Shown: positions 2,099 to 51,227 of the stretch, piece by piece
Position numbering within the stretch: the stretch's first letter is position 1
How the letters are laid out: the number at the start of each line of letters is the position of its first letter
Assembly (NCBI GenBank): GCA_019635695.1
Contig: JAHBYZ010000003.1
Span: 1 to 64,000, forward strand
DNA: 64,000 bases
Reading direction: 5' to 3'
From: Rhizobiaceae bacterium
GTDB lineage: Bacteria > Pseudomonadota > Alphaproteobacteria > Rhizobiales > Rhizobiaceae
The notes under the pieces: model-generated
The model's database searches: none
Told to the model about the DNA's origin: nothing
What the model saw: the letters and a program-made list of their open reading frames with translations, nothing else
Translations under genes and position numbers: made by a program

Positions 2099-4219
2099 AT
2101 GGCGCGCAGGAAGGCCGACCGGCGGATCGAGCCGCGTTTCGACGCGGCACATGACGATTCCGACGGCTTCGCGCTGAACGAGGAGGATCGCGTCCTGCCC
2201 GCGAGGCGCAAGAAGGCCAAGGCCGGCCCCGCATCCCGGGGCACCGGCTCGCGTGCCGGTGCGCGCAACAGGGCGAGACCGAAGCGCGGCTTCATCGGCA
2301 CCGCCATTCGCCGCCTCGTCTACTGGACGCTGGTTCTCGGCATCTGGGTCGGCATAGCCGGCGGCGCGCTCGTTGCCTGGTACGGCGCGCAGATGCCCTC
2401 GGTGGCGAGCTGGGAGGTGCCGGACCGCCCGCCCAACGTGCGCATTCTGTCCGTCGACGGCCAGCTCGTCGCCAATCGCGGCATGACCGGTGGCGAGGCG
2501 CTCGGCCTGCGCGACATGTCGCCCTGGATCCCGCAGGCTGTCATGGCCATCGAGGACCGCCGCTTCTATTCGCATTTCGGCGTCGACCCGATCGGGCTGG
2601 CGCGCGCGATGTTCACCAACCTGACCAGCGGCGGCTTCTCGCAGGGCGGCTCGACGCTCACCCAGCAGCTGGCCAAGAATCTGTTCCTCAAGCCCGACCG
2701 CACGCTGGAGCGCAAGGTTCAGGAGGTGCTGCTGGCGCTGTGGCTGGAGCATCGTCACTCCAAGGACGAGATCCTGGAGATGTACCTCAACCGCGTCTAT
2801 TTCGGCTCCGGTTCCTACGGCGTCGAGGCCGCCTCGCGCCGCTATTTCGGCAAGAGCGCCCGCGACGTGACGCTGGCGGAAGCCGCGGTGCTTGCCGGCC
2901 TGCTCAAGGCGCCGTCGCGGCTGTCGCCTGCCCGCGACCCGAAGGCGGCAGCCGAGCGCGCCGACCTCGTTCTCAACGCCATGCGCGAGCAGGGCATTAT
3001 CGACCGGGCACAGCTCGCCGGCGCGCTCGACGCCCCGCCGGCTCGCCCGGCGTCCTACTGGACCGGCTCCGAACACTACGTCGCGGACAAGGTCATGGAC
3101 GAGCTGCCCGGCCTCGTCGGCGAGATCGGCACCGACCTGATCGTCGAGACGACGATCGACCTGCACCTGCAGGAATTCGCCGAGCGCTCGATCCGCCGCC
3201 TGATCGACGAGAACCGGGAAAAGGCCAATGTCAGCCAGGGCGTGCTGGTGTCGCTCGACAACACCGGCGCGGTGCGCGCCATGGTCGGCGGCTACGACTA
3301 TGCCAACAGCCAGTTCGACCGCGCCACGCAGGCCAAGCGCCAGCCGGGCTCGGCCTTCAAGCCCTTCGTGTTCATGGCGGCGCTCGAGCAGGGGCTGACG
3401 CCCGACACGGTGCGCCGCGACGCGCCGGTCAGGATCGGCAAGTGGCAGCCGGCCAACTTCAACGACAAATATTATGGCGACGTGACGCTGACGCAGGCGC
3501 TGGCGAAGTCGCTGAATTCGGTCGCCGTGCGCCTCGTCGACGAGGTCGGCTACAAGCGCGTCATCGACGCCGCCTATCGCATGGGCATCGAGTCGGACCT
3601 GCAGAAAAACGCATCCATCGCGCTCGGCACGTCGGAGGTCACGCCGCTGGAGCTGACCGCCGCCTTCGTGCCTTTCGCCAATGGCGGCTTCCGCCCCTTC
3701 GTCCACTTCATCGAGAAGGTGTCGACGCCCTCGGGCGAGGTGCTGTGGCAGCGCCGCTCCGCCGGCATCCCGCGCGTCGCCAACGCCAACGTCGTCGGCA
3801 TGATGAACCGCATGATGTCCGCTACGCTGGAGGAAGGCACGGCCCGCAAGGCCGCCTTCGGCTGGCCCGCCGCCGGCAAGACCGGCACCACGCAGTCCTC
3901 GCGCGACGTCTGGTTCGTCGGCTACACGGCCAACCTGACCACCGGCGTGTGGTTCGGCAATGACGACGGCGCGCCGACGAAGAACCTCACCGGCGGCTCG
4001 CTGCCGGCCATCGCCTGGCACGACTTCATGCTGGCAGCCCACGAGGGCGTGGCGGTGCGCGGCCTGCCGGGCGCGACGCAGGCGCCGCTGCCGACCTTGC
4101 GCGACGGTTTCCCGGTCGCCGAGGACCACACCGCGTCCATCGGCGCCAACGACGCGGCGGCGCCCCCGCCGGAACCGCGCCGCGTGAATTCCATCCTCGA
4201 CGTGCTGATGGGCAACTAG
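2099..4219 (+). CDS. class A penicillin-binding protein (transglycosylase/transpeptidase)
   Basis: Glycosyltransferase-51 motifs (EDRRFYSHFGVD, GGSTLTQQLAKN) and transpeptidase SxxK (SAFKPF), SxN and KTG motifs. 706 aa. Confidence 0.85.
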   Translation: MARRKADRRIEPRFDAAHDDSDGFALNEEDRVLPARRKKAKAGPASRGTGSRAGARNRARPKRGFIGTAIRRLVYWTLVLGIWVGIAGGALVAWYGAQMPSVASWEVPDRPPNVRILSVDGQLVANRGMTGGEALGLRDMSPWIPQAVMAIEDRRFYSHFGVDPIGLARAMFTNLTSGGFSQGGSTLTQQLAKNLFLKPDRTLERKVQEVLLALWLEHRHSKDEILEMYLNRVYFGSGSYGVEAASRRYFGKSARDVTLAEAAVLAGLLKAPSRLSPARDPKAAAERADLVLNAMREQGIIDRAQLAGALDAPPARPASYWTGSEHYVADKVMDELPGLVGEIGTDLIVETTIDLHLQEFAERSIRRLIDENREKANVSQGVLVSLDNTGAVRAMVGGYDYANSQFDRATQAKRQPGSAFKPFVFMAALEQGLTPDTVRRDAPVRIGKWQPANFNDKYYGDVTLTQALAKSLNSVAVRLVDEVGYKRVIDAAYRMGIESDLQKNASIALGTSEVTPLELTAAFVPFANGGFRPFVHFIEKVSTPSGEVLWQRRSAGIPRVANANVVGMMNRMMSATLEEGTARKAAFGWPAAGKTGTTQSSRDVWFVGYTANLTTGVWFGNDDGAPTKNLTGGSLPAIAWHDFMLAAHEGVAVRGLPGATQAPLPTLRDGFPVAEDHTASIGANDAAAPPPEPRRVNSILDVLMGN

Positions 4220-27113: not shown

Positions 27114-27126
27114 TCTGGCCCCGCTC

Positions 27127-27555
27127 TCAGGCCGGCTTCAGCGCCGGAACGATGTCGGTATGGACAAAATCGTCGCCCTTGAAAAGCAGCGGCAGGCCGC
27201 GCGTCTTGGCCAGCGCATAGGCGAAGCAGTCGCCGAAGTTCAAACCTGCCGGATGGCCGGAACCACGGCCGAAGCGTTCATACCCGCTACGGGCCATCAG
27301 GAACTGCTCGACGTCGAAGGGCACAAGCTCAGGCTCTATAAGATCAAGAAGCCGGTCAAGCTCGGGAACAAGTTCCTGAAGATCCTTCCTCCGCAGCACC
27401 GAACAGGTCTCGAACAGCGTCGCAAGACTGAGGCAGGGATCCAGTTCCACATCGAGGTAGGTGCGGAAACTCTCCGCATCCACCTCATGTCGGAGCACCG
27501 ATATTATCGCCGAGGTGTCGAGGACGAAGGCGGCCAAGCGAGACCCTCTTCCCAC
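27127..27555 (-). CDS. vapC: type II toxin VapC (PIN-domain ribonuclease)
   Basis: PIN N-terminus (FVLDTSAII) with conserved acidic residues. Start is a GTG or TTG inside a longer ORF and is uncertain by about 18 nt. Confidence 0.65.
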   Translation of the reverse strand: MGRGSRLAAFVLDTSAIISVLRHEVDAESFRTYLDVELDPCLSLATLFETCSVLRRKDLQELVPELDRLLDLIEPELVPFDVEQFLMARSGYERFGRGSGHPAGLNFGDCFAYALAKTRGLPLLFKGDDFVHTDIVPALKPA

Positions 27556-27785
27556 ATTTCGTCGGACACCTTTTTCAGATCGAACGGTTCGGTCTGCTTG
27601 ATCCCGATGGCGCGCAGGTCTTCCAGTATCGATGCGCGCCTCTTGCGGGGCGCGACCGGCTCGGCCAGCACGCGAACCAAGGCATCGCGTGCAAACTGCT
27701 CCATCGAAACGCCATGCTCCGCCGCCCGCAGCCGCAGCGCGCGCTTCACGTCGTCGTCGAGGTTCCGGATCGTCAGGGCACCCAT
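27504..27785 (-). CDS. type II antitoxin (FitA/VapB-like ribbon-helix-helix)
   Basis: MGALTIRNLDDDVKRALRLRAAEHGVSMEQFARDAL is the typical RHH antitoxin N-terminus. Lies immediately upstream of and overlapping vapC. Confidence 0.6.
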   Translation of the reverse strand: MGALTIRNLDDDVKRALRLRAAEHGVSMEQFARDALVRVLAEPVAPRKRRASILEDLRAIGIKQTEPFDLKKVSDEMWEEGLAWPPSSSTPRR

Positions 27786-27853
27786 GACGGCCTCCGGTTG
27801 ATTGCATTGCTATCAATGTAAGCATTGACAGCAATGCTGTCAAAAACGCGCCG

Positions 27854-29422: not shown

Positions 29423-29440
29423 GCCGTGGCTCCTCCCCCG

Positions 29441-29490
29441 TTCACGGGGGAGGGGGACCGCCGAAGGCGGTGGAGGGGGCGGTGTCGTGA
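29441..29490. repeat. REP-like GC-rich palindromic element (copy A)
   Basis: CCTCCCCCGTTCACGGGGGAGG hairpin plus GGGGGACCGCCGAAGGCGGTGGAGGGGG, in the ubiB-ubiE intergenic region. Approximate. Confidence 0.6.
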
Positions 29491-33600: not shown

Positions 33601-33739
33601 AGAACCCCCTCTCCGTCACGCTTCGCGTGCCACCTCTCCCCCATTTCATGGGGGCGAGGAACTCGGCCGCAACGTCTTCGCAGTTCCTCGCCCCCGCAAC
33701 GCGGGGGAGAGGTGGCACGCGAAGCGTGACGGAGAGGGG
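33601..33739. repeat. long near-perfect palindrome (about 35-bp arms, REP-related, copy B)
   Basis: CTCTCCGTCACGCTTCGCGTGCCACCTCTCCCCC ... GGGGGAGAGGTGGCACGCGAAGCGTGACGGAGAG with an inner palindrome. Approximate. Confidence 0.6.
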
Positions 33740-33746
33740 CCTTCTT

Positions 33747-34058
33747 TCACCGCCCCTCCTCAACGAAGCGGCGCAGAAAGTGGCGCGCGGCATAGGCCAA
33801 ATCGTCGACCCAGTCGGGCATCGGCACGCTGCACAGGCCGGTCGCGGCCGCGTTCATGCAGCGGCCGTGCTGGCGACAGAGCCGCGCCGGGCATTTGCCG
33901 GCATTGCCGATCATGGTGGCGAACAGCGCGAAGGCCAGCTTCTCGGCCTGCATGGCGGACTCGAAGTCGGCGACCGACAGGCCGGCGACGGTCGTGGGCT
34001 CGGGTGCCGGCTTCGGTGCCGGCTGGGCTTGCGGCTTGGCTTTGGCCTTCTGCGGCAT
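33747..34058 (-). CDS. small hypothetical protein (Lys/Pro/Ala-rich N-terminus, Cys-containing C-terminus)
   Basis: ORF starting at internal Met (MPQKAKAKPQ...). No known domain. Confidence 0.4.
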   Translation of the reverse strand: MPQKAKAKPQAQPAPKPAPEPTTVAGLSVADFESAMQAEKLAFALFATMIGNAGKCPARLCRQHGRCMNAAATGLCSVPMPDWVDDLAYAARHFLRRFVEEGR

Positions 34059-34379
34059 GGCGTGCTCCTGCTGACATGGGGGTTCGTCGCCGCGCTCGCT
34101 TCGAGGGCGGGTGGGAAGCGGGCGCATGGCTCAGCGTCCTAAAAGAATGCTGCTATGACGCCTCGCCATGCGCCCGCCGGTGTTCTTGTCCCGCGGCGAG
34201 GGTGTACCGGCCTGACTGGGACCCGGACCTGAGGGCTCAACACCCAGGCGGACTACCGTCGCCCGCCCGATCCGGCACCGGCGCCCTCACGAAAGGTCGG
34301 TGGCCTTCCGTTTCCCGTGAGAGCAGCAGGGCGGATTATGGGGGAGGTGGAGAGGGTGGGGATAGATTTCGGCGGGAAT

Positions 34380-34680
34380 GGCGGATTTGTGCGTGGTTAG
34401 GCGCGGATTTGTCCCGCAGAAAGTGGCAGCGACCCCTTCTCCCCTCGTGGGGTCCGAAGGGGCGGATGAGGGGTGTTGGCCGGATCGCCAACTTCTCATT
34501 CCTTCCAGCACCCCTCATCCGTCTCGGCGCTGCGCGCCGATCCACCGCCCGGGGTGCATTCGCACCCGTCCTTCGGACCCCACGAGGGGAGAAGGGGTCG
34601 CGTCCCTCTCCGCTTCGTCATCCCGGAAGACGCTGCGAACGGAGTGAGCGGCGGCTATCCGGGATCCATGCCGTGATGTC
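34380..34680. repeat. composite MITE-like repetitive element (copy C) with 30-bp perfect terminal inverted repeats
   Basis: GACCCCTTCTCCCCTCGTGGGGTCCGAAGG at about 34431-34460 and its exact reverse complement at about 34561-34590. Direct repeats GCGGATTTGT x2 and CCCCTCATCCG x2. Confidence 0.55.
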
Positions 34681-34785
34681 TCAGGACTCCCACCGCCGTG
34701 GCCGTTCCGATGGGGAGGCATGGATTCCGGATAGACATCCGGCGCTGACGCGCCGCCGCCAGTTAGCCCCAAACACTTTCGACGT

Positions 34786-36036
34786 CTAAAGCAAGCCACC
34801 CATCGCGTAGCTGGGTTCTGTTAAAATCTGCGTATGAATTTTCTCTAGCTTTGCCTTGTCGCCGGTAGGAGCCGATGTTGACCGCAATACAGATTGAATC
34901 ATTAGAAATTTATCGTGTCCACACTTAAGGGGAAGACTATCGTTCTTTGCGTGCAGTATCGATTTGAATCTACTATATCCGGTGCTGACCGTAGCGATAT
35001 CCAAATGGAACTCTAGGAGGCTCTGACCCTTCGGCAGTAGTCGGTTTCGAAGATAATTCGCGGCCTTCGGCGCAAGCGTCTTGTCCTCGGCCAGTCGCGG
35101 CCACAACCCTGCAACTAACCGCGACAGCGTCTCGTCATTCATCCAAATGCGCTCACATCGAGTGATTGCCGAGAATAAGGTCGTGGGCAGTCCATAGCGG
35201 GATAGCAGCCAGAGTGCGCCGTAGGCCGGCGCCATTTCGTCAAGTGGGAAGACGTCAAGGATTCCCTTTAGCGAGGCGACCTCTGTGCCGTCGTAGTGGA
35301 TCTTGGCCTCGACTAGCCGCTTCGCCAAAACCATTCGAAAATAGTCGTCACAGACCAGGCCGAGCCTAAAGACGCTGTCGACTGCCTGAAATTCTTCCCG
35401 TCGAAACCCACAAATAGACGCGTTGCGAAGTGCCGAGTCTCGCAAGTTCGGGTGAAGTCGTACCACCGCCGCGAATAAAGCGTCGGGAAGCCGAAAGCTA
35501 TACTTGTTAAGTATACCAATTGTTCTCTTGAGTATCTTCTCTCCATTACCGTTCTTAAAGTAGCCTTGGCTATACTTTTTATCAACAGCGCGAGCGAAGA
35601 TAGACAGGGCGCGATCGGCTGCAGGCGCGCCTTTTGGCAACGAATCAAGATAACTTTCAATCTTATCGAGAACCCGAGTATCGCGCACGCGAAAGTGTTG
35701 AAAAGCTTCAATTGCGCTTAGTATCTTAGTTTTCCCTGCGTTCAAGCGCAGGCTACGCGACTGAAGCACAAGATCCGTATCTCTCAGTAGTCTCTTTGCC
35801 TCTTCAATCGTATCGGTGCCGGCATCAATGTCGTCCATAAAGCGGGCGTAATTCTTCTGGGACCTCTGCTCCATAAATCGATCAAGCTCAAACAAATAAC
35901 AGTGAGCGAGCAGTCGGGGTGCATCTAGGTCCATCTGAGGCAGGCCGATTTGCCTAGGAGGCATGAAGTCCGGGCGCCAAGACAGGGCGGTCACTATATG
36001 CAACAGAAAATCAAATAGCGGCTCCTGCACTTTCAC
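34786..36036 (-). CDS. reverse transcriptase, C-terminal part (RT motifs B, C, D plus a roughly 270-aa extension), in AT-rich island
   Basis: Motif B GLPQMDLDAPRLLAHCYLFELDRFM, motif C YARFMDD and motif D LRLNAGKTKIL. GTG start. Local GC is about 45% against about 66% in flanking DNA. Confidence 0.55.
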   Translation of the reverse strand: MKVQEPLFDFLLHIVTALSWRPDFMPPRQIGLPQMDLDAPRLLAHCYLFELDRFMEQRSQKNYARFMDDIDAGTDTIEEAKRLLRDTDLVLQSRSLRLNAGKTKILSAIEAFQHFRVRDTRVLDKIESYLDSLPKGAPAADRALSIFARAVDKKYSQGYFKNGNGEKILKRTIGILNKYSFRLPDALFAAVVRLHPNLRDSALRNASICGFRREEFQAVDSVFRLGLVCDDYFRMVLAKRLVEAKIHYDGTEVASLKGILDVFPLDEMAPAYGALWLLSRYGLPTTLFSAITRCERIWMNDETLSRLVAGLWPRLAEDKTLAPKAANYLRNRLLPKGQSLLEFHLDIATVSTGYSRFKSILHAKNDSLPLKCGHDKFLMIQSVLRSTSAPTGDKAKLEKIHTQILTEPSYAMGGLL

Positions 36037-36047
36037 AAAAGAAGTAA

Positions 36048-36323
36048 TTACGTTGCGAAGTTGTATAAGTCGATAAAATCATAGTAATTAGCAATATCTG
36101 TAACTACAATAGATTTGTTCTCTTTATTAAATCTAAGGATTTCCGACTGAAAAGCTTTCCACGATCTGAAAGTTCCATATTCTTGTTCGTCTACGGGTCT
36201 AAAGCTGTGATCTCGTGGTTCGAAGAAGGCATTCTTTGATGGCGACTGGCGTTTAAGGTCACCATACAATTTATCGGAAAGGCATTGGAGAATTATCGCT
36301 ACCTCAACGGTCGGCTGAACCAT
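36048..36323 (-). CDS. reverse transcriptase, N-terminal part (motifs 1/2 and A), different frame from downstream part
   Basis: PRDHSFRPV (motif 1/2) and SIVVTDIANYYDFI (motif A, DxxxF/YxxI pattern). Ends 11 nt before the GTG of the downstream RT ORF, in another frame. Confidence 0.5.
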   Translation of the reverse strand: MVQPTVEVAIILQCLSDKLYGDLKRQSPSKNAFFEPRDHSFRPVDEQEYGTFRSWKAFQSEILRFNKENKSIVVTDIANYYDFIDLYNFAT

Positions 36324-36715
36324 TAGGCGACAGAGACCAAGTGTCTTCTCAACCTGATATCGATTCGGGGGGTCGATTGTGAATTTCCAGCGCGAATATC
36401 TGTTCGTATTCGCGAGATAACCTGATCGATTCTCGCTTGAGTATCCAGATGGCCAACTGGATCGGGGAAAAGCTGACGCCGAAGATCATAGCGCGTCTTC
36501 TTTCTCCACTTTTCCTCTAATCGCTTGGCGCTAAGGTAGCGGAGGATGTAGCGCGCCCGAAGTTCATATTTCGGAGAGTGTTGAGACACAGGAAAGTCTC
36601 TTGTTTGCAAATCGAAGAGTTGCGGGAAAGCGGATTCTTGATCCCAACATATCCCTATTCGGTATGGTGCCAAGGTTGGCAGACTAACAACCCGGCCGAC
36701 GTCGCGGGCGATCAT
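36323..36715 (-). CDS. hypothetical protein, first ORF of the RT island (possible N-terminal segment of the same fragmented gene)
   Basis: ORF whose TAA overlaps the ATG of the next ORF (TAATG). No recognisable motif. Confidence 0.35.
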   Translation of the reverse strand: MIARDVGRVVSLPTLAPYRIGICWDQESAFPQLFDLQTRDFPVSQHSPKYELRARYILRYLSAKRLEEKWRKKTRYDLRRQLFPDPVGHLDTQARIDQVISRIRTDIRAGNSQSTPRIDIRLRRHLVSVA

Positions 36716-36803
36716 CTTGAGAGAATGAGAAGGCGCTGGTCGCGCGCCTTCGGCAGCTCACCCACCCGAACTTTCGCTCCCGTGAGACCTCTGCGCGAAG
36801 CCG

Positions 36804-36860
36804 CCCCCTCCACCACGCTTCGCGCGGTCCCCCTCCCCCGCTTCGCAGGGGAGGATCCCC
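36804..36860. repeat. REP-like GC-rich palindromic element (copy D)
   Basis: CCCCCTCCACCACGCTTCGCGCGGTCCCCCTCCCCCGCTTCGCAGGGGAGGATCCCC, between the RT island and the lepA stop. Approximate. Confidence 0.6.
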
Positions 36861-36864
36861 GGCG

Positions 36865-38679
36865 CTAGCTCTCACCCATCTTCAGCGCCTCGATAAACGC
36901 CGCCTGCGGGATCTCGACCTTGCCGAACTGCCGCATGCGCTTCTTGCCTTCCTTCTGCTTTTCCAGAAGCTTGCGCTTGCGGGTGGCGTCGCCGCCGTAG
37001 CACTTGGCGGTCACGTCCTTGCGCAGGGCCGAGATCGTCTCGCGGGCGATGATGCGGCCGCCGATGGCCGCCTGGATCGGGATCTTGAACATGTGCTGCG
37101 GGATCAGTTCCTTGAGCTTCTCGCACATGACGCGGCCGCGCTTTTCGGCGCGCGAGCGGTGGACCAGCATGGAGAGCGCGTCGACCGGCTCGTCGTTGAC
37201 CAGGATCGACATCTTGACGAGGTCGCCCTCGCGATAGTCGGTGAGCTGGTAGTCGAAGGAGGCGTAGCCCTTCGAGATCGACTTCAGCCGGTCGTAGAAG
37301 TCGAACACCACCTCGTTGAGCGGCAGGTCGTAGACCAGCATGGCGCGCTTGCCGACATAGGAGAGGTCGACCTGCACGCCGCGGCGCTCCTGGCAGAGCT
37401 TCAGGATCGAGCCGAGATAGTCGTCGGGCGTGAGGATGGTGGCGCGGATCCACGGCTCCTCGATATGGGCGATCTTGACCACGTCGGGCATGTCGGCGGG
37501 GTTGTGCAGCTCGCGCGTGGTGCCGTCGGTGAGCGCCAGGCGGTAGACCACGCTGGGCGCGGTGGCGATGAGGTCGAGGTCGAACTCGCGCTCCAGCCGC
37601 TCCTGGATGATCTCCAGATGCAGCAGGCCGAGGAAACCGCAGCGGAAGCCGAAGCCCAGGGCCGCGGACGTCTCCATCTCGAAGGAGAACGAGGCGTCGT
37701 TGAGGCGCAGCTTGCCCATGGCGCCGCGCAGATCCTCGAAATCCGCGGCGTCGACCGGGAACAGGCCGCAGAAGACAACGGGCTGCGCCGGCTTGAAGCC
37801 CGGCAGCGGGGCGGCGGTCGGCTTGCGGTCCTCGGTGATGGTGTCGCCGACACGGGTGTCGGCCACCTCCTTGATGGAGGCCGTGATGAAGCCGAACTCG
37901 CCGGGGCCGATCTGGTCGGCCTGGATCATCTTGGGCGTGAAGAAGCCGGTGCGCTCGACGTCGTACTTGGCGCCGGTGCCCATCATACGGATGGTCTGGC
38001 CCTTCTTCAGCACGCCGTCGATGACGCGCACGAGCACGATGACGCCGAGATAGGCGTCGTACCAGGAGTCGACCAGCATGGCCTTGAGCGGCGCGGCCGC
38101 GTTGCCTTCCTTCGGGGGCGGCAGCTGCTTGACGATGGCCTCCAGCACGAGGTCGATGCCGATGCCGGTCTTGGCCGAGATCATGACGGCCTGCGAGGCG
38201 TCGAGGCCGATGACCTCCTCGACCTGCTCCTTGATGCGCTCGGGCTCGGCGGCGGGCAGGTCGATCTTGTTCAGCACCACCACGATCTCGTGGTTGGCGT
38301 CGATGGCCTGGTAGACGTTGGCGAGCGTCTGCGCCTCGACGCCCTGCGAGGCGTCGACCACAAGGAGAGAACCCTCGCAGGCGCGCAGCGAGCGGGAGAC
38401 CTCGTAGCCGAAGTCGACATGGCCGGGCGTGTCGATGAGGTTGAGGATGTAGTCCTGCCCGTCGGCGGCCTTGTAGTTGAGGCGCACGGTCTGCGCCTTG
38501 ATGGTGATGCCGCGCTCGCGCTCGATGTCCATGTTGTCGAGCACCTGCTCCTTGCCGGCCATCTCGCGCGCGTCGAGCCCGCCGGTCATCTGGATGAGCC
38601 GGTCGGCGAGCGTCGATTTGCCATGGTCGATATGGGCGACGATGGAGAAGTTGCGGATGTTCTTGAGCGGAGTCGTCAT
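36865..38679 (-). CDS. lepA: elongation factor 4 (LepA)
   Basis: GTPase motifs ([22 protein letters not shown]) and the LepA C-terminal domain. 604 aa. Confidence 0.9.
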
Positions 38680-44787: not shown

Positions 44788-44794
44788 CGGCCGG

Positions 44795-44980
44795 ATCCTC
44801 CCCTGCGTAGCGGGGGAGATGGCGCGAAGCGCCGGAGGGGGGCGGCCTTGCTCGGCCCTCAGTCAGGGAAATGAGATAGAGTGGGGCAGCGACAGGCCCG
44901 TGGAGGTCGGCACAACTCCGCCCCCTCCACCACGCTTCGCGGGGTCCCCCTCCCCCGTTGCACGGGGGAGGATGAGCGTC
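44795..44980. repeat. REP-like GC-rich palindromic element (copy E, two modules)
   Basis: CCTCCCCTGCGTAGCGGGGGAG module and CCCCCTCCACCACGCTTCGCGGGGTCCCCCTCCCCCGTTGCACGGGGGAGG module. Approximate. Confidence 0.55.
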
Positions 44981-50568: not shown

Positions 50569-51227
50569 GGTCGAGATTTCTCCAATCTCGATGGAGAAGT
50601 AGAAACACCCCCTCCACCACGCTTCGCGTGGTCCCCCTCCCCCGTAAACGGGGGAGGAACCGGCGTTGCGGCCGGTCGCGACCTCGGTTCCTCCCCTGCG
50701 AAGCGGGGGAGGGGGACCGCCGAAGGCGGTGGAGGGGGTGTTTTGCGACTGATCAGTCGCGGGGCTTCGTATCCGTCGGGTATTCTTCCAGTCGCGGCGG
50801 TCAATGCGATGACCCGGAGGACGCCCTCGAAAAGGTGGTCGTCCAGAATGTCCCTGGCCGCGATGCGCAGTACCTGGATACCTTCTGTTGCGAGCCAATC
50901 GTCTCGTCGATTGTCAGCTTTCATCTGCCTTTCGAGATCATGGTGCGATCCATCGACCTCGACGGCCAGGCGGGCGGTCGCGCAGTAGAAATCCAGCACG
51001 TAGGGGCCAACGGGATGTTGCCGCCTGAAGCGCGGGCGATCCAGGCGCGCGCCGCGCAATTGCTCCCAAAGAAGCGACTCCGGCAAAGTGAACTCGCGCC
51101 TCAGGCGTCGCGCATTTGCAATCGTGCGTTCGGGTGCTCGCAGACCCACGGGACTACCCCTCCTGCGCCATCGGCTGCGCGGCCACTCGGTCCTCGACGC
51201 CGGGCATCGGCGAGGTGTCGCCGTCAT
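50565..51227 (-). CDS. DUF559 (Vsr-like endonuclease fold) domain protein, reading through REP copy F
   Basis: DUF559 pattern (ARRLRREFTLPESLLWEQLR...QHPVGPYVLDFYCATARLAVEVDGSHH). The start is uncertain. The ATG at 51227 overlaps the cydA 3' end. The last roughly 55 codons translate the REP element. Confidence 0.45.
   Translation of the reverse strand: MTATPRRCPASRTEWPRSRWRRRGSPVGLRAPERTIANARRLRREFTLPESLLWEQLRGARLDRPRFRRQHPVGPYVLDFYCATARLAVEVDGSHHDLERQMKADNRRDDWLATEGIQVLRIAARDILDDHLFEGVLRVIALTAATGRIPDGYEAPRLISRKTPPPPPSAVPLPRFAGEEPRSRPAATPVPPPFTGEGDHAKRGGGGVSTSPSRLEKSRP
50604..50742. repeat. REP-like GC-rich palindromic element (copy F; forward and inverted modules form a long hairpin)
   Basis: CCCCCTCCACCACGCTTCGCGTGGTCCCCCTCCCCCG ... 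CCTCCCCTGCGAAGCGGGGGAGGGGGACCGCCGAAGGCGGTGGAGGGGG. Approximate. Confidence 0.6.

What the first reader, a model, noticed from the sequence alone, without database searches (positions are those of the whole stretch)
34786..36715. AT-rich island encoding a reverse transcriptase split over three consecutive ORFs, flanked by REP palindromes
This is the only strongly AT-shifted stretch in the window. Three minus-strand ORFs in three different frames together carry a complete RT catalytic core. ORF-B (36048-36323) has motif 1/2 (PRDHSFRPV) and motif A (SIVVTDIANYYDFI). ORF-C (34786-36036, GTG start 11 nt after the ORF-B stop) has motif B (GLPQ..APRLLAHCYLFELDRFM), motif C (YARFMDD), motif D (NAGKTKI) and a roughly 270-aa non-RT C-terminal extension. 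ORF-A (36323-36715) ends with TAATG overlapping the ORF-B start. Summed length is about 637 aa, the size of Abi-type (AbiA/AbiK/Abi-P2) or DRT defence reverse transcriptases rather than group II intron or retron RTs. There is no maturase or endonuclease motif and no obvious msr/msd room. The locus is wedged between a hypothetical gene and lepA and bounded by REP-like elements. Possible explanations are a defence-associated RT inactivated by frameshifts, a genuinely multi-ORF RT system, or homopolymer sequencing errors in AT-rich DNA (TTCTTTT at the B/C junction).
Basis: partly seen in the sequence, partly recalled or inferred. Interest (0 to 1): 0.85.

Follow-up and report, generated by a model that had tools for sequence, protein, structure and literature searches.

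The report
Recently broken UG13a defence-type reverse transcriptase gene
The three ORFs are the pieces of one 601-codon reverse-transcriptase gene of the uncharacterised UG13a group, recently broken by two single-base deletions, in a variable slot just downstream of the housekeeping gene lepA; it is an ordinary pseudogene in an informative location.

Summary
Three minus-strand ORFs in three frames lie in the only AT-shifted stretch of the window, and together they carry a reverse-transcriptase (RT) core.

They are one gene, GTG 36589 to TAG 34786. It maps end to end onto the PADLOC RT_UG13a profile. About 235 homologues are mostly single ORFs of roughly 600 aa.

A public contig, L089, carries the intact allele. 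Over 2,262 nt it differs from the window at three positions only: A4→A3 at 36386-36384, T3→T2 at 36068-36067, and Phe→Ser at 36112. A second assembly, L001, shares all three but differs elsewhere.

The predicted fold is an RT plus a helical C-terminal domain, like AbiK, AbiA and DRT4. By analogy, the intact protein would be a stand-alone, protein-primed, untemplated DNA polymerase. The window copy is dead.

No ncRNA and no conserved partner gene were found. In Mesorhizobium and Phyllobacterium the same lepA-downstream slot holds two UG13a lineages only about 40% identical, or, in a 90%-identical relative, an unrelated ATPase cassette.

This is a known family, so interest is low to moderate.

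The parts
34786..36589 (-). UG13a reverse-transcriptase pseudogene (ancestrally 601 codons; GTG start 36589, TAG stop 34788-34786)
   Evidence: Collinear match of all three ORFs to PADLOC RT_UG13a. The intact allele L089 differs at three positions. GTG or ATG starts at the homologous MSQ/MTQHSPK position in L007, L008, L091 and L092.
36384..36386 (-). Frameshift 1: AAA run where the intact allele has AAAA (GGAAAATTC)
   Evidence: Three-way DNA alignment of the window, L089 and L001. The same single gap appears against the 80%-identical homologue L002.
36111..36113 (-). Codon TCT (Ser) where the intact allele has TTT (Phe); five residues before the catalytic Asp of motif A; aromatic or hydrophobic in all aligned homologues
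36067..36068 (-). Frameshift 2: TT where the intact allele has TTT (GACTTTATAC)
36323..36715 (-). ORF-A as listed. Only codons 43-111 (36589 to about 36384) are native RT sequence. The first 42 codons are probably 5' leader, and the last 19 are out of frame.
   Evidence: The PADLOC match starts at aa 45.
36048..36323 (-). ORF-B: native residues about 91-175 (RT motifs 2, 2a and A), then a short out-of-frame tail
34786..36036 (-). ORF-C: native residues about 186-601 (RT motifs B-E, thumb, and a helical C-terminal domain of about 300 aa). NCBI annotates only its last 350 aa as hypothetical protein MBX3529541.1.
35830..35841 (-). Motif C catalytic FMDD
   Evidence: Read from the sequence. Invariant M252-D253-D254 in alignments A1 and A2.
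36096..36098 (-). Motif A catalytic Asp (VVTD)
   Evidence: Invariant D165 in A1 and A2.
34415..36794 (.). Variable segment: everything between the two blocks that align with the syntenic relative L086 (about 90% identical), which carries a different cassette here
   Evidence: blastn of the window against L086. Gene content of L086.
36590..36794 (-). 5' leader of the RT gene inside the variable segment. It has no significant structure and is not conserved in homologues. One chance-level sigma-70-like site lies at 36673-36646.
   Evidence: Fold z-score -0.24. No upstream conservation. Promoter scan. Rfam negative.
36795..36864 (.). Host REP-like repeat directly after the lepA stop; shared with L086
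   Evidence: At least six further copies in the window: 29423-29482, 33691-33738, 44793-44846, 44918-44973, 50608-50661 and 50686-50738. Aligned with L086.
34429..34601 (.). Perfect 32-nt inverted repeat with a 109-nt spacer, downstream of the RT stop and inside the variable segment. Both Logan contigs end inside its second arm.
34655..34734 (.). Second palindrome (18-nt arms, 94% complementary)
36865..38679 (-). lepA (elongation factor 4), the conserved upstream flank of the slot
   Evidence: Exact match to MBX3529542.1. lepA sits directly upstream of UG13a RT genes in 11 other loci.
33747..34127 (-). 126-aa hypothetical gene, the conserved downstream flank shared with L086
   Evidence: No Pfam or PADLOC hit.

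Best explanation
**What it is.** The locus is a single-gene UG13a reverse transcriptase: a UG/Abi "Class 1" architecture, with an RT domain fused to a helical C-terminal domain of about 300 aa. It sits in a variable slot immediately downstream of lepA. Two 1-nt deletions have very recently inactivated it, and there is also a Phe-to-Ser change next to the catalytic Asp.

**Shown.**
- It is one ancestral gene.
- The exact lesions are known.
- A near-identical intact allele exists.
- It belongs to UG13a.
- Its predicted fold is AbiK/AbiA/DRT4-like.
- There is no conserved ncRNA or partner gene.
- The slot is variable.

**Inferred for the intact protein.** By analogy with solved and assayed Class 1 relatives (AbiK, Abi-P2, AbiA, DRT4), it would act alone as a protein-primed, template-independent DNA polymerase. 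Its ssDNA product would become toxic when a phage factor stabilises it, giving abortive infection.

**Consequence for the window allele.**
- Translation from GTG 36589 stops after 88 codons.
- RT motif 1 is not translated in any ORF.
- Motif A and motif C lie on different fragments.
- No active polymerase can therefore be made.

**How the cassette got there.** It carries no integrase or transposase. It is most likely exchanged by homologous recombination through the conserved flanks.
For: **One gene, known lesions.**
- PADLOC RT_UG13a matches all three ORFs collinearly.
- The intact allele P0146 scores E 2.3e-179 over profile positions 1-583 of 589. The next family, UG21, scores 1e-30.
- 235 homologues were found; most are single ORFs of about 600 aa.
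- Against the 80%-identical L002, the window has exactly two 1-nt gaps.
- L089 (SRR30566754) equals window 36831..34572 except for the two indels and C/T at 36112.
- L001 (SRR12908345) shares all three changes and differs at 35678, so it is a separate haplotype.

**Still looks like a working gene otherwise.**
- The repaired protein has the consensus residue at all 64 columns that are invariant across A1, which includes it. The one known exception is Asn305, invariant in A2, which is Thr here.
- The family is under purifying selection: pN 0.125 against pS 0.87, and dN/dS 0.04 for L091 against L092.

**Fold.**
- AlphaFold model of P0001: pLDDT 92.5, pTM 0.91, helical from residue 293 to 596.
- Foldseek gives full-length hits to AbiK 7r07/7z0z, AbiA 8oz7, UG15/DRT4 9l9s/9vdo, DRT6 9wy8 and Abi-P2 7r08.

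**Mechanism of relatives.**
- DRT4 shows untemplated synthesis with tyrosine priming (PMC12783706).
- Class 1 systems perform untemplated synthesis (PMC13174585 abstract).

**Stands alone.**
- No partner gene is conserved across the 80 loci.
- There is no upstream structure or conservation.

**Variable slot.**
- L086 carries an ATPase cassette between the same flanks.
- lepA lies upstream of UG13a in 11 other loci.
- LepA proteins 96-99% identical go with RTs about 40% identical.
- In Mesorhizobium the same 170-aa gene lies downstream of both RT lineages.
Against: - The window is a metagenome-assembled genome and reads could not be inspected. I could not establish whether L001 comes from an independent sample.
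- Defence activity of UG13a has never been shown, and the one systematic study rated its defence association inconclusive.
- Foldseek TM-scores to AbiK and DRT4 are moderate (0.4-0.55). The fold class is shared, but domain orientation or detail differs.
- Both the intact allele L089 and the window carry Thr at an Asn that is invariant in the 89-sequence alignment A2 (35679-35677). Even the "intact" allele may therefore be impaired.
- The priming residue and the product are unknown.
Confidence: 0.85

Rival explanations
1. Assembly or sequencing artefact: the gene is intact in the organism and the two 1-nt deletions are consensus errors in a metagenome-assembled genome.
For: The source is a MAG. 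Both lesions are length changes in homopolymers (A4 to A3, T3 to T2). An intact, otherwise identical allele exists.
Against: - The runs are only 3-4 nt long.
- A second assembly from a named SRA run, L001, has both deletions and the Ser codon, yet differs from the window at 35678. It is therefore not simply the same consensus.
- A base substitution accompanies the deletions.
- Seven flanking genes (lepA, phaZ, a C93 peptidase, an adenosine deaminase, ubiE, ubiB, dfp) have the same lengths as in L086 (phaZ differs only in the called start) or match NCBI proteins exactly. The contig shows no general indel problem.
Confidence: 0.07
2. A functional recoded or split system: programmed -1 frameshifting at both sites, or three polypeptides made by translational coupling (TAATG overlap; GTG 11 nt after the ORF-B stop) that assemble into an active RT.
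For: Both shifts are in the -1 direction. The ORF junctions resemble coupling signals.
Against: - There is no X XXY YYZ slippery heptamer and no long A/T run at either true shift site.
- The homologues, including the near-identical allele, are single ORFs.
- Motif 1 (EKxxGLCR, invariant) lies in a stretch that has no start codon in its frame and cannot be translated.
- Catalytic motifs A and C would be on separate chains.
Confidence: 0.02
3. Reversible on/off switching (phase variation) of a costly RT through homopolymer slippage.
For: Both lesions are homopolymer length changes, and both states exist in public data.
Against: Tracts of 3-4 nt slip far too rarely for phase variation. Two independent tracts and a missense change would all have to revert. 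Homologues do not conserve these tracts.
Confidence: 0.02
4. A different RT class: a retron, group II intron, DGR or CRISPR-associated RT remnant.
For: By sequence alone, the best solved-structure hits to the RT domain are group II intron and retron-type RTs.
Against: - Rfam finds no intron, retron or other RNA.
- There is no structured upstream RNA.
- There is no TR/VR-like repeat pair.
- PADLOC scores other RT families 150 orders of magnitude worse than UG13a.
- The C-terminal domain matches AbiK/AbiA/DRT4 and not a maturase.
Confidence: 0.01

Closest known systems
UG13a group of UG/Abi reverse transcriptases (Mestre et al. 2022, PMC9226505; PADLOC model PDLC03749)
   Same: The profile matches full length and collinearly: E 2.3e-179 for the intact allele, and all three window ORFs map in order. 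The length is about 600 aa and the gene stands alone.
   Different: The window copy is frameshifted twice. The group has no assigned function, and its defence association was rated inconclusive.
DRT4 / UG15 (single-gene Class 1 defence RT; PDB 9vdo, 9l9s)
   Same: Single protein; RT plus helical C-terminal domain; full-length structural alignment with TM 0.47-0.55; no ncRNA.
   Different: Only 13% identity, and the PADLOC Drt4 score is weak (E about 1e-8). The trigger, oligomer, priming tyrosine and product are untested for UG13a.
AbiK, AbiA and Abi-P2 abortive-infection polymerases (PDB 7r07, 8oz7, 7r08)
   Same: These are the best full-length Foldseek matches: E 7e-9, about 600-670 aligned columns, RT plus alpha-repeat domain.
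   Different: 11-13% identity and TM only 0.4-0.45. The PADLOC AbiK and AbiA models score about 1e-6 to 1e-8. Those genes are from Lactococcus plasmids and P2 prophages; this one is chromosomal and next to lepA.
Defence or variable-gene hotspots between conserved core genes (general concept)
   Same: The flanks are fixed: lepA on one side, and a conserved small gene on the other (the 126-aa gene here and in L086, a 170-aa gene in Mesorhizobium). The low-GC cargoes alternate, and no integrase is present.
   Different: Here the usual cargo is one gene family with two deep lineages. I found no description of a lepA-linked slot in the searched library.

Membership tests
UG13a (UG/Abi RT group) | Full-length match to the group's profile, clearly better than to any other RT group | tested here: met
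   PADLOC RT_UG13a: 596 bits, E 2.3e-179, profile positions 1-583 of 589 for the intact allele P0146. The next group, UG21, scores 105 bits. The window ORFs A, B and C map collinearly.
UG13a (UG/Abi RT group) | Intact RT catalytic core in one polypeptide (motifs 1-7, YxDD-type motif C) | tested here: not met
   All motifs are encoded, but two frameshifts split them. Motif 1 cannot be translated, and motifs A and C lie in different ORFs. The locus is a pseudogene member.
Class 1 UG/Abi RTs (AbiK, AbiA, Abi-P2, DRT4, DRT6 ...) | RT domain fused to a C-terminal alpha-helical repeat (alphaRep, HEAT-like) domain | tested here: met
   The model of the 80%-identical homologue (pLDDT 92.5) is all-helical from 293 to 596. 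Full-length Foldseek hits go to AbiK, AbiA, UG15/DRT4, DRT6 and Abi-P2. The definition is from PMC9226505.
Class 1 UG/Abi RTs | Protein-primed, template-independent DNA synthesis | not testable with these tools
   This is biochemistry only. An invariant Tyr138 at the end of the only disordered loop (129-138) and a near-invariant Tyr70 are candidate priming residues. That is inference.
Anti-phage defence system (DRT) | Protection against phage that depends on the RT active site | not testable with these tools
   The literature calls the UG13a defence prediction inconclusive. Indirect support found here: a variable slot, deep allelic lineages, persistent low GC, and replacement by an ATPase cassette.
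ncRNA-dependent DRTs (DRT2, DRT3, DRT9) and retrons | Conserved structured ncRNA adjacent to the RT gene | tested here: not met
   No Rfam hit. The 211-nt leader folds no better than shuffled sequence, z -0.24. Upstream and downstream regions are conserved only between near-identical loci.
Group II intron RT/maturase | Intron RNA domains, maturase X domain and/or endonuclease domain | tested here: not met
   No intron RNA in Rfam. Similarity to intron RTs is limited to profile positions 14-290, the RT domain.
Diversity-generating retroelement | Template and variable repeat pair plus an accessory Avd gene | tested here: not met
   No such direct-repeat pair around the gene, and no conserved neighbour.
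Mobile genomic island | Integrase or transposase, flanking direct repeats or att sites | tested here: not met
   The 2,380-nt variable segment holds only the RT gene and palindromes. UG13a is rare on viral contigs (4 loci) and on plasmids.

The most novel reading that the evidence does not exclude
The lepA-downstream slot may be a long-lived conflict locus in Mesorhizobium, Phyllobacterium and related Rhizobiales. Two deeply diverged UG13a lineages (about 40% identity) and unrelated cassettes are swapped between genomes that are nearly identical in the flanks. That would be the first population-level evidence that UG13a is an immune or conflict gene.

Within this population the RT may be being actively discarded. 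All four polymorphisms seen over 2.26 kb are damaging: two frameshifts, Phe160Ser, and Asn305Thr at an invariant residue. None is synonymous or intergenic. This suggests selection against a costly or autotoxic polymerase rather than neutral decay.
Probability: 0.3. Interest if true: 0.5.

Novelty: new member of a known kind. Interest (0 to 1): 0.3.

Why it matters
**On its own the locus matters little.** It is a dead copy of a catalogued but uncharacterised RT group. GenBank annotates it only as a 350-aa hypothetical protein.

**Three things make it useful.**
1. It supplies a matched pair of alleles, intact and broken, only three mutations apart, for a group with no experimental data.
2. It shows that UG13a sits in a fixed slot next to lepA across Mesorhizobium-like genomes. 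There, highly divergent alleles and other cassettes alternate. This is the signature expected of an immune gene, and it may explain why island-based "guilt by association" scoring left UG13a inconclusive.
3. The high-confidence model places UG13a among the untemplated, protein-primed polymerases (AbiK, DRT4). That gives a concrete, testable mechanism.

Tried and rejected
- **Pfam alone.** It barely detects the RT: 24 bits on ORF-C, below the gathering score. It passes only on the intact allele, at 32.6 bits.
- **Exact look-up of the window's LepA for contigs.** Nothing was found. The syntenic relative was reached through a PhaZ cluster member instead.
- **The genome-contig scan.** It did not return the window's own species (best RT hit 59%). 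Orthologous loci had to come from the protein-cluster route.
- **Two metagenome contigs pattern scans across the two frameshift sites.** These allowed either tract length and found nothing. Allele frequencies could not be estimated.
- **Search for an ncRNA.** All negative: Rfam, folding z-score, and upstream and downstream conservation across 65 loci and the closest homologues.
- **Search for a conserved partner gene.** Only flank genes emerged: lepA, uvrA, a 170-aa gene and a Phd antitoxin. The 170-aa and 169-aa neighbours have no Pfam hit.
- **RT remnants in RT-less relatives L083, L085 and L086.** None.
- **Sequence-profile search of the PDB.** It saw only the RT domain. The AbiK/DRT4 relationship needed the structure model.
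- **The promoter scan.** It is at chance level and was not used as evidence.
- **Programmed frameshifting.** Rejected for lack of slippery sites at the true shift positions.
Full report
**1. The observation**

Their start coordinates fall in three different frames. Each step from one ORF to the next is a -1 shift.

The region is the only AT-shifted part of the window. GC is 0.43-0.49 at 35501-36500 and 0.57-0.60 beside it. Every other 500-nt bin is 0.61-0.74.

Pfam sees only a sub-threshold RVT_1 match on ORF-C. PADLOC places all three ORFs collinearly on a single profile, RT_UG13a:
- ORF-A aa 45-122 to profile positions 1-78.
- ORF-B aa 1-87 to positions 88-176.
- ORF-C aa 2-411 to positions 187-583 of 589.

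**2. One gene, two single-base deletions**

A search of 5.8 billion proteins returned 235 relatives. Most are single ORFs of about 600 aa, and the closest is 80% identical (P0001, 601 aa). Their N-termini (MTHHSPKY, MSQHSPKY, MTQHSPKY) line up with codon 43 of ORF-A, which is a GTG at 36589. Several homologues also start with GTG at that position. The gene is therefore 36589..34786, and it would be 601 codons long if repaired.

The DNA alignment with the P0001 locus (L002) shows exactly two gaps in the window, each of 1 nt.

The 90%-identity protein cluster of ORF-C contains a 643-aa member, P0146. Its contig L089 (Logan assembly of SRR30566754) equals window 36831..34572 except at three positions:
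- The window has AAA instead of AAAA at 36386-36384.
- The window has TT instead of TTT at 36068-36067.
- The window has C instead of T at 36112. This gives Ser instead of Phe, five residues before the motif A Asp. All aligned homologues have an aromatic or hydrophobic residue there.

**3. Are the frameshifts real?**

The window comes from an NCBI metagenome-assembled genome labelled "Rhizobiaceae bacterium", on a 191.5-kb contig. GenBank annotates only the last 350 aa of ORF-C, as a hypothetical protein.

A second assembly, L001 (Logan, SRR12908345), carries both deletions and the Ser codon. It differs from the window at 35678, where it has AAT (Asn) against ACT (Thr). At least three haplotypes therefore exist, and two of them share the lesions.

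The seven genes flanking the locus either have the same lengths as in a 90%-identical relative (phaZ differs only in the called start) or match NCBI proteins exactly. The contig shows no general indel problem.

I could not inspect reads. About 7% probability remains for an assembly artefact.

**4. Consequences for the protein**

- Translation from GTG 36589 ends after 88 codons.
- The invariant motif 1 (RYQVEKTLGLCR) lies after the first frameshift but before the first start codon of its frame, so no ORF translates it.
- The motif A Asp (36098-36096) and motif C FMDD (35841-35830) fall in different ORFs.
- Neither true shift site has a slippery heptamer or a long A/T run.

Recoding, or a functional split enzyme, is therefore very unlikely.

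Apart from these lesions the gene is pristine. The family is under strong purifying selection: pN 0.125 against pS 0.87 for the window allele against L002, and dN/dS 0.04 for L091 against L092. The inactivation is recent.

One oddity remains. Both the window and the intact L089 allele carry Thr at an Asn that is invariant in the 89-sequence alignment A2. All four polymorphisms seen in this allele group are therefore damaging or non-conservative, and none is silent.

**5. What kind of RT it is**

The intact allele scores E 2.3e-179 on RT_UG13a. The next-best groups (UG21, UG22, UG19, UG13b) score about 1e-30 to 1e-23. AbiA, AbiK and Drt4 score about 1e-6 to 1e-8.

Mestre et al. 2022 (PMC9226505) define UG13a and list its defence prediction as inconclusive. 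They define Class 1 UG/Abi RTs by a C-terminal alpha-repeat domain. No other paper in the searched library mentions UG13a.

An AlphaFold model of P0001, built with 89 homologues, has pLDDT 92.5 and pTM 0.91. It shows an RT domain followed by an all-helical domain from residue 293 to 596. It has a single disordered loop (129-138), which ends at an invariant Tyr.

Foldseek against the PDB gives full-length matches to AbiK, AbiA, UG15/DRT4, DRT6 and Abi-P2. It gives RT-only matches to group II intron and DGR RTs.

The locus shows none of the features of other RT classes:
- There is no Rfam family.
- The leader has no significant fold, z -0.24.
- No upstream or downstream sequence is conserved beyond near-identical loci.
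- No partner gene is conserved across 80 genomic loci.

**6. Likely mechanism (inference)**

DRT4 is a single-gene system. It makes random ssDNA without a template, primed from a tyrosine. It kills the cell when a phage DNA-binding protein shields that ssDNA from exonucleases (PMC12783706). Class 1 systems in general perform untemplated synthesis (PMC13174585 abstract).

UG13a shares the architecture, stands alone and lacks an ncRNA. The most likely mechanism for the intact protein is therefore protein-primed, untemplated DNA synthesis used for abortive infection. This is analogy and not a test. The window allele cannot do it.

**7. Genomic setting**

A syntenic metagenome contig, L086, is about 90% identical in DNA and has a 97%-identical LepA. 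It aligns with the window up to 36795 on the lepA side and from 34414 on the other side. Between these points the window has the RT segment (2,380 nt). L086 instead has a different low-GC cassette (GC 0.43-0.59). That cassette encodes a 520-aa P-loop ATPase (ORC/CDC6-like or KAP; weak PADLOC mad8 match) and a 222-aa protein of unknown function. More distant relatives have neither cassette.

lepA is the immediate, same-strand upstream neighbour of UG13a genes in many other loci:
- Eight loci from the genome scan, mostly Mesorhizobium.
- The three closest named homologues: Phyllobacterium sp. A18/5-2, Mesorhizobium sp. LNHC221B00 and a Mesorhizobium MAG.

Those RT genes have GC 0.44-0.47 in hosts of GC 0.64.

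Genomes whose LepA proteins are 96-99% identical carry RTs that are only about 40% identical; for L031 against L091 the figures are 99% and 41%. In Mesorhizobium the same 170-aa gene follows both RT lineages.

The slot is therefore fixed and its content is exchanged, most simply by recombination through the flanks. No integrase is present. UG13a is rare on viral contigs and plasmids. In five sphingomonad-type loci the neighbour is uvrA instead. This argues for lineage-specific slots rather than a functional tie to LepA.

**8. The repeats**

The 70 nt after the lepA stop (36795-36864) belong to a REP-like family with at least six other copies in the window, and L086 shares them. The perfect 32-nt inverted repeat at 34429-34601 and the palindrome at 34655-34734 lie inside the variable segment and are single-copy here. 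Both Logan contigs stop inside the 34570-34601 arm, which suggests that this sequence is repeated elsewhere in those genomes.

**9. Verdict**

The locus is a recently pseudogenised member of a known but uncharacterised RT group, which makes it a new member of a known kind.

Its value lies in the matched intact and broken alleles, and in the lepA-linked variable slot with two deep UG13a lineages. That slot gives indirect support for a conflict or defence role. Interest is 0.3.

Noticed in passing
L004-L009, L016, L031, L090-L092 (lepA at e.g. L092 36-1841, RT 2311-4110): lepA is the same-strand upstream neighbour of UG13a RT genes in 11 other loci (Mesorhizobium, Phyllobacterium, Rhizobiaceae MAGs). 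Two RT lineages only about 40% identical occupy the same slot in genomes whose LepA is 96-99% identical.
   Followed up: partly
L086 4467-6955: A 90%-identical syntenic relative carries a different low-GC cassette in place of the RT. It encodes a 520-aa P-loop ATPase (ORC/CDC6-like or KAP; weak PADLOC mad8 hit, E 3.8e-6) and a divergently oriented 222-aa protein with no family hit. This may be an uncharacterised two-gene system.
   Followed up: partly
window 35677-35679 (and L001, L089): The window and the intact allele L089 have Thr (ACT) at an Asn that is invariant in 89 homologues. The frameshifted contig L001 has Asn (AAT). The three haplotypes are not explained by a simple linear order of mutations, so recombination, recurrent mutation or a contig error is needed.
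   Followed up: partly
L022, L026, L028 (first 315 nt upstream of the RT start): UG13a loci of Nitratireductor sp. B36, Paracoccus aurantiacus and a Mesorhizobium MAG share 98-99% identical upstream DNA. This suggests very recent transfer between genera.
   Followed up: no
L011, L023, L032, L035, L036: In Erythrobacter- and sphingomonad-type genomes and an Opitutales MAG, the UG13a gene lies next to uvrA. The 984-aa neighbour has UvrA domains and also hits PADLOC mad3 and mad8.
   Followed up: no
window 29423-29482, 33606-33739, 36795-36864, 44793-44846, 44918-44973, 50608-50661, 50686-50738: A REP-like intergenic repeat family with a GC-rich palindromic core (CCCCTC...GCTTCGCG...GGGG), present singly or as inverted dimers.
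   Followed up: partly
L002 1930-2166; L009 7982-8212; L004 4580-4690: A Phd/YefM-type antitoxin gene lies just downstream of the RT in loci carrying either RT lineage. The window has no such gene.
   Followed up: no
L086 13753-14405 versus window 27114-27853: The relative has a FitA-like/PIN toxin-antitoxin pair between ubiB and dfp. The corresponding 740-nt interval of the window was not examined.
   Followed up: no
window 34786-35838: GenBank annotates only a 350-aa "hypothetical protein KF849_02975" (MBX3529541.1) starting at MDDID. The RT nature and the pseudogene status are absent from the public annotation.
   Followed up: yes
L094-L097 (IMG/VR): Four viral-contig loci encode UG13a relatives (32-42% identity). 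Their context was not examined.
   Followed up: no
window 38592-38664 (+): Sub-threshold Rfam hit to AsrC (32.6 bits against a gathering score of 111) inside lepA on the opposite strand. It is probably a conserved-coding-sequence artefact.
   Followed up: no
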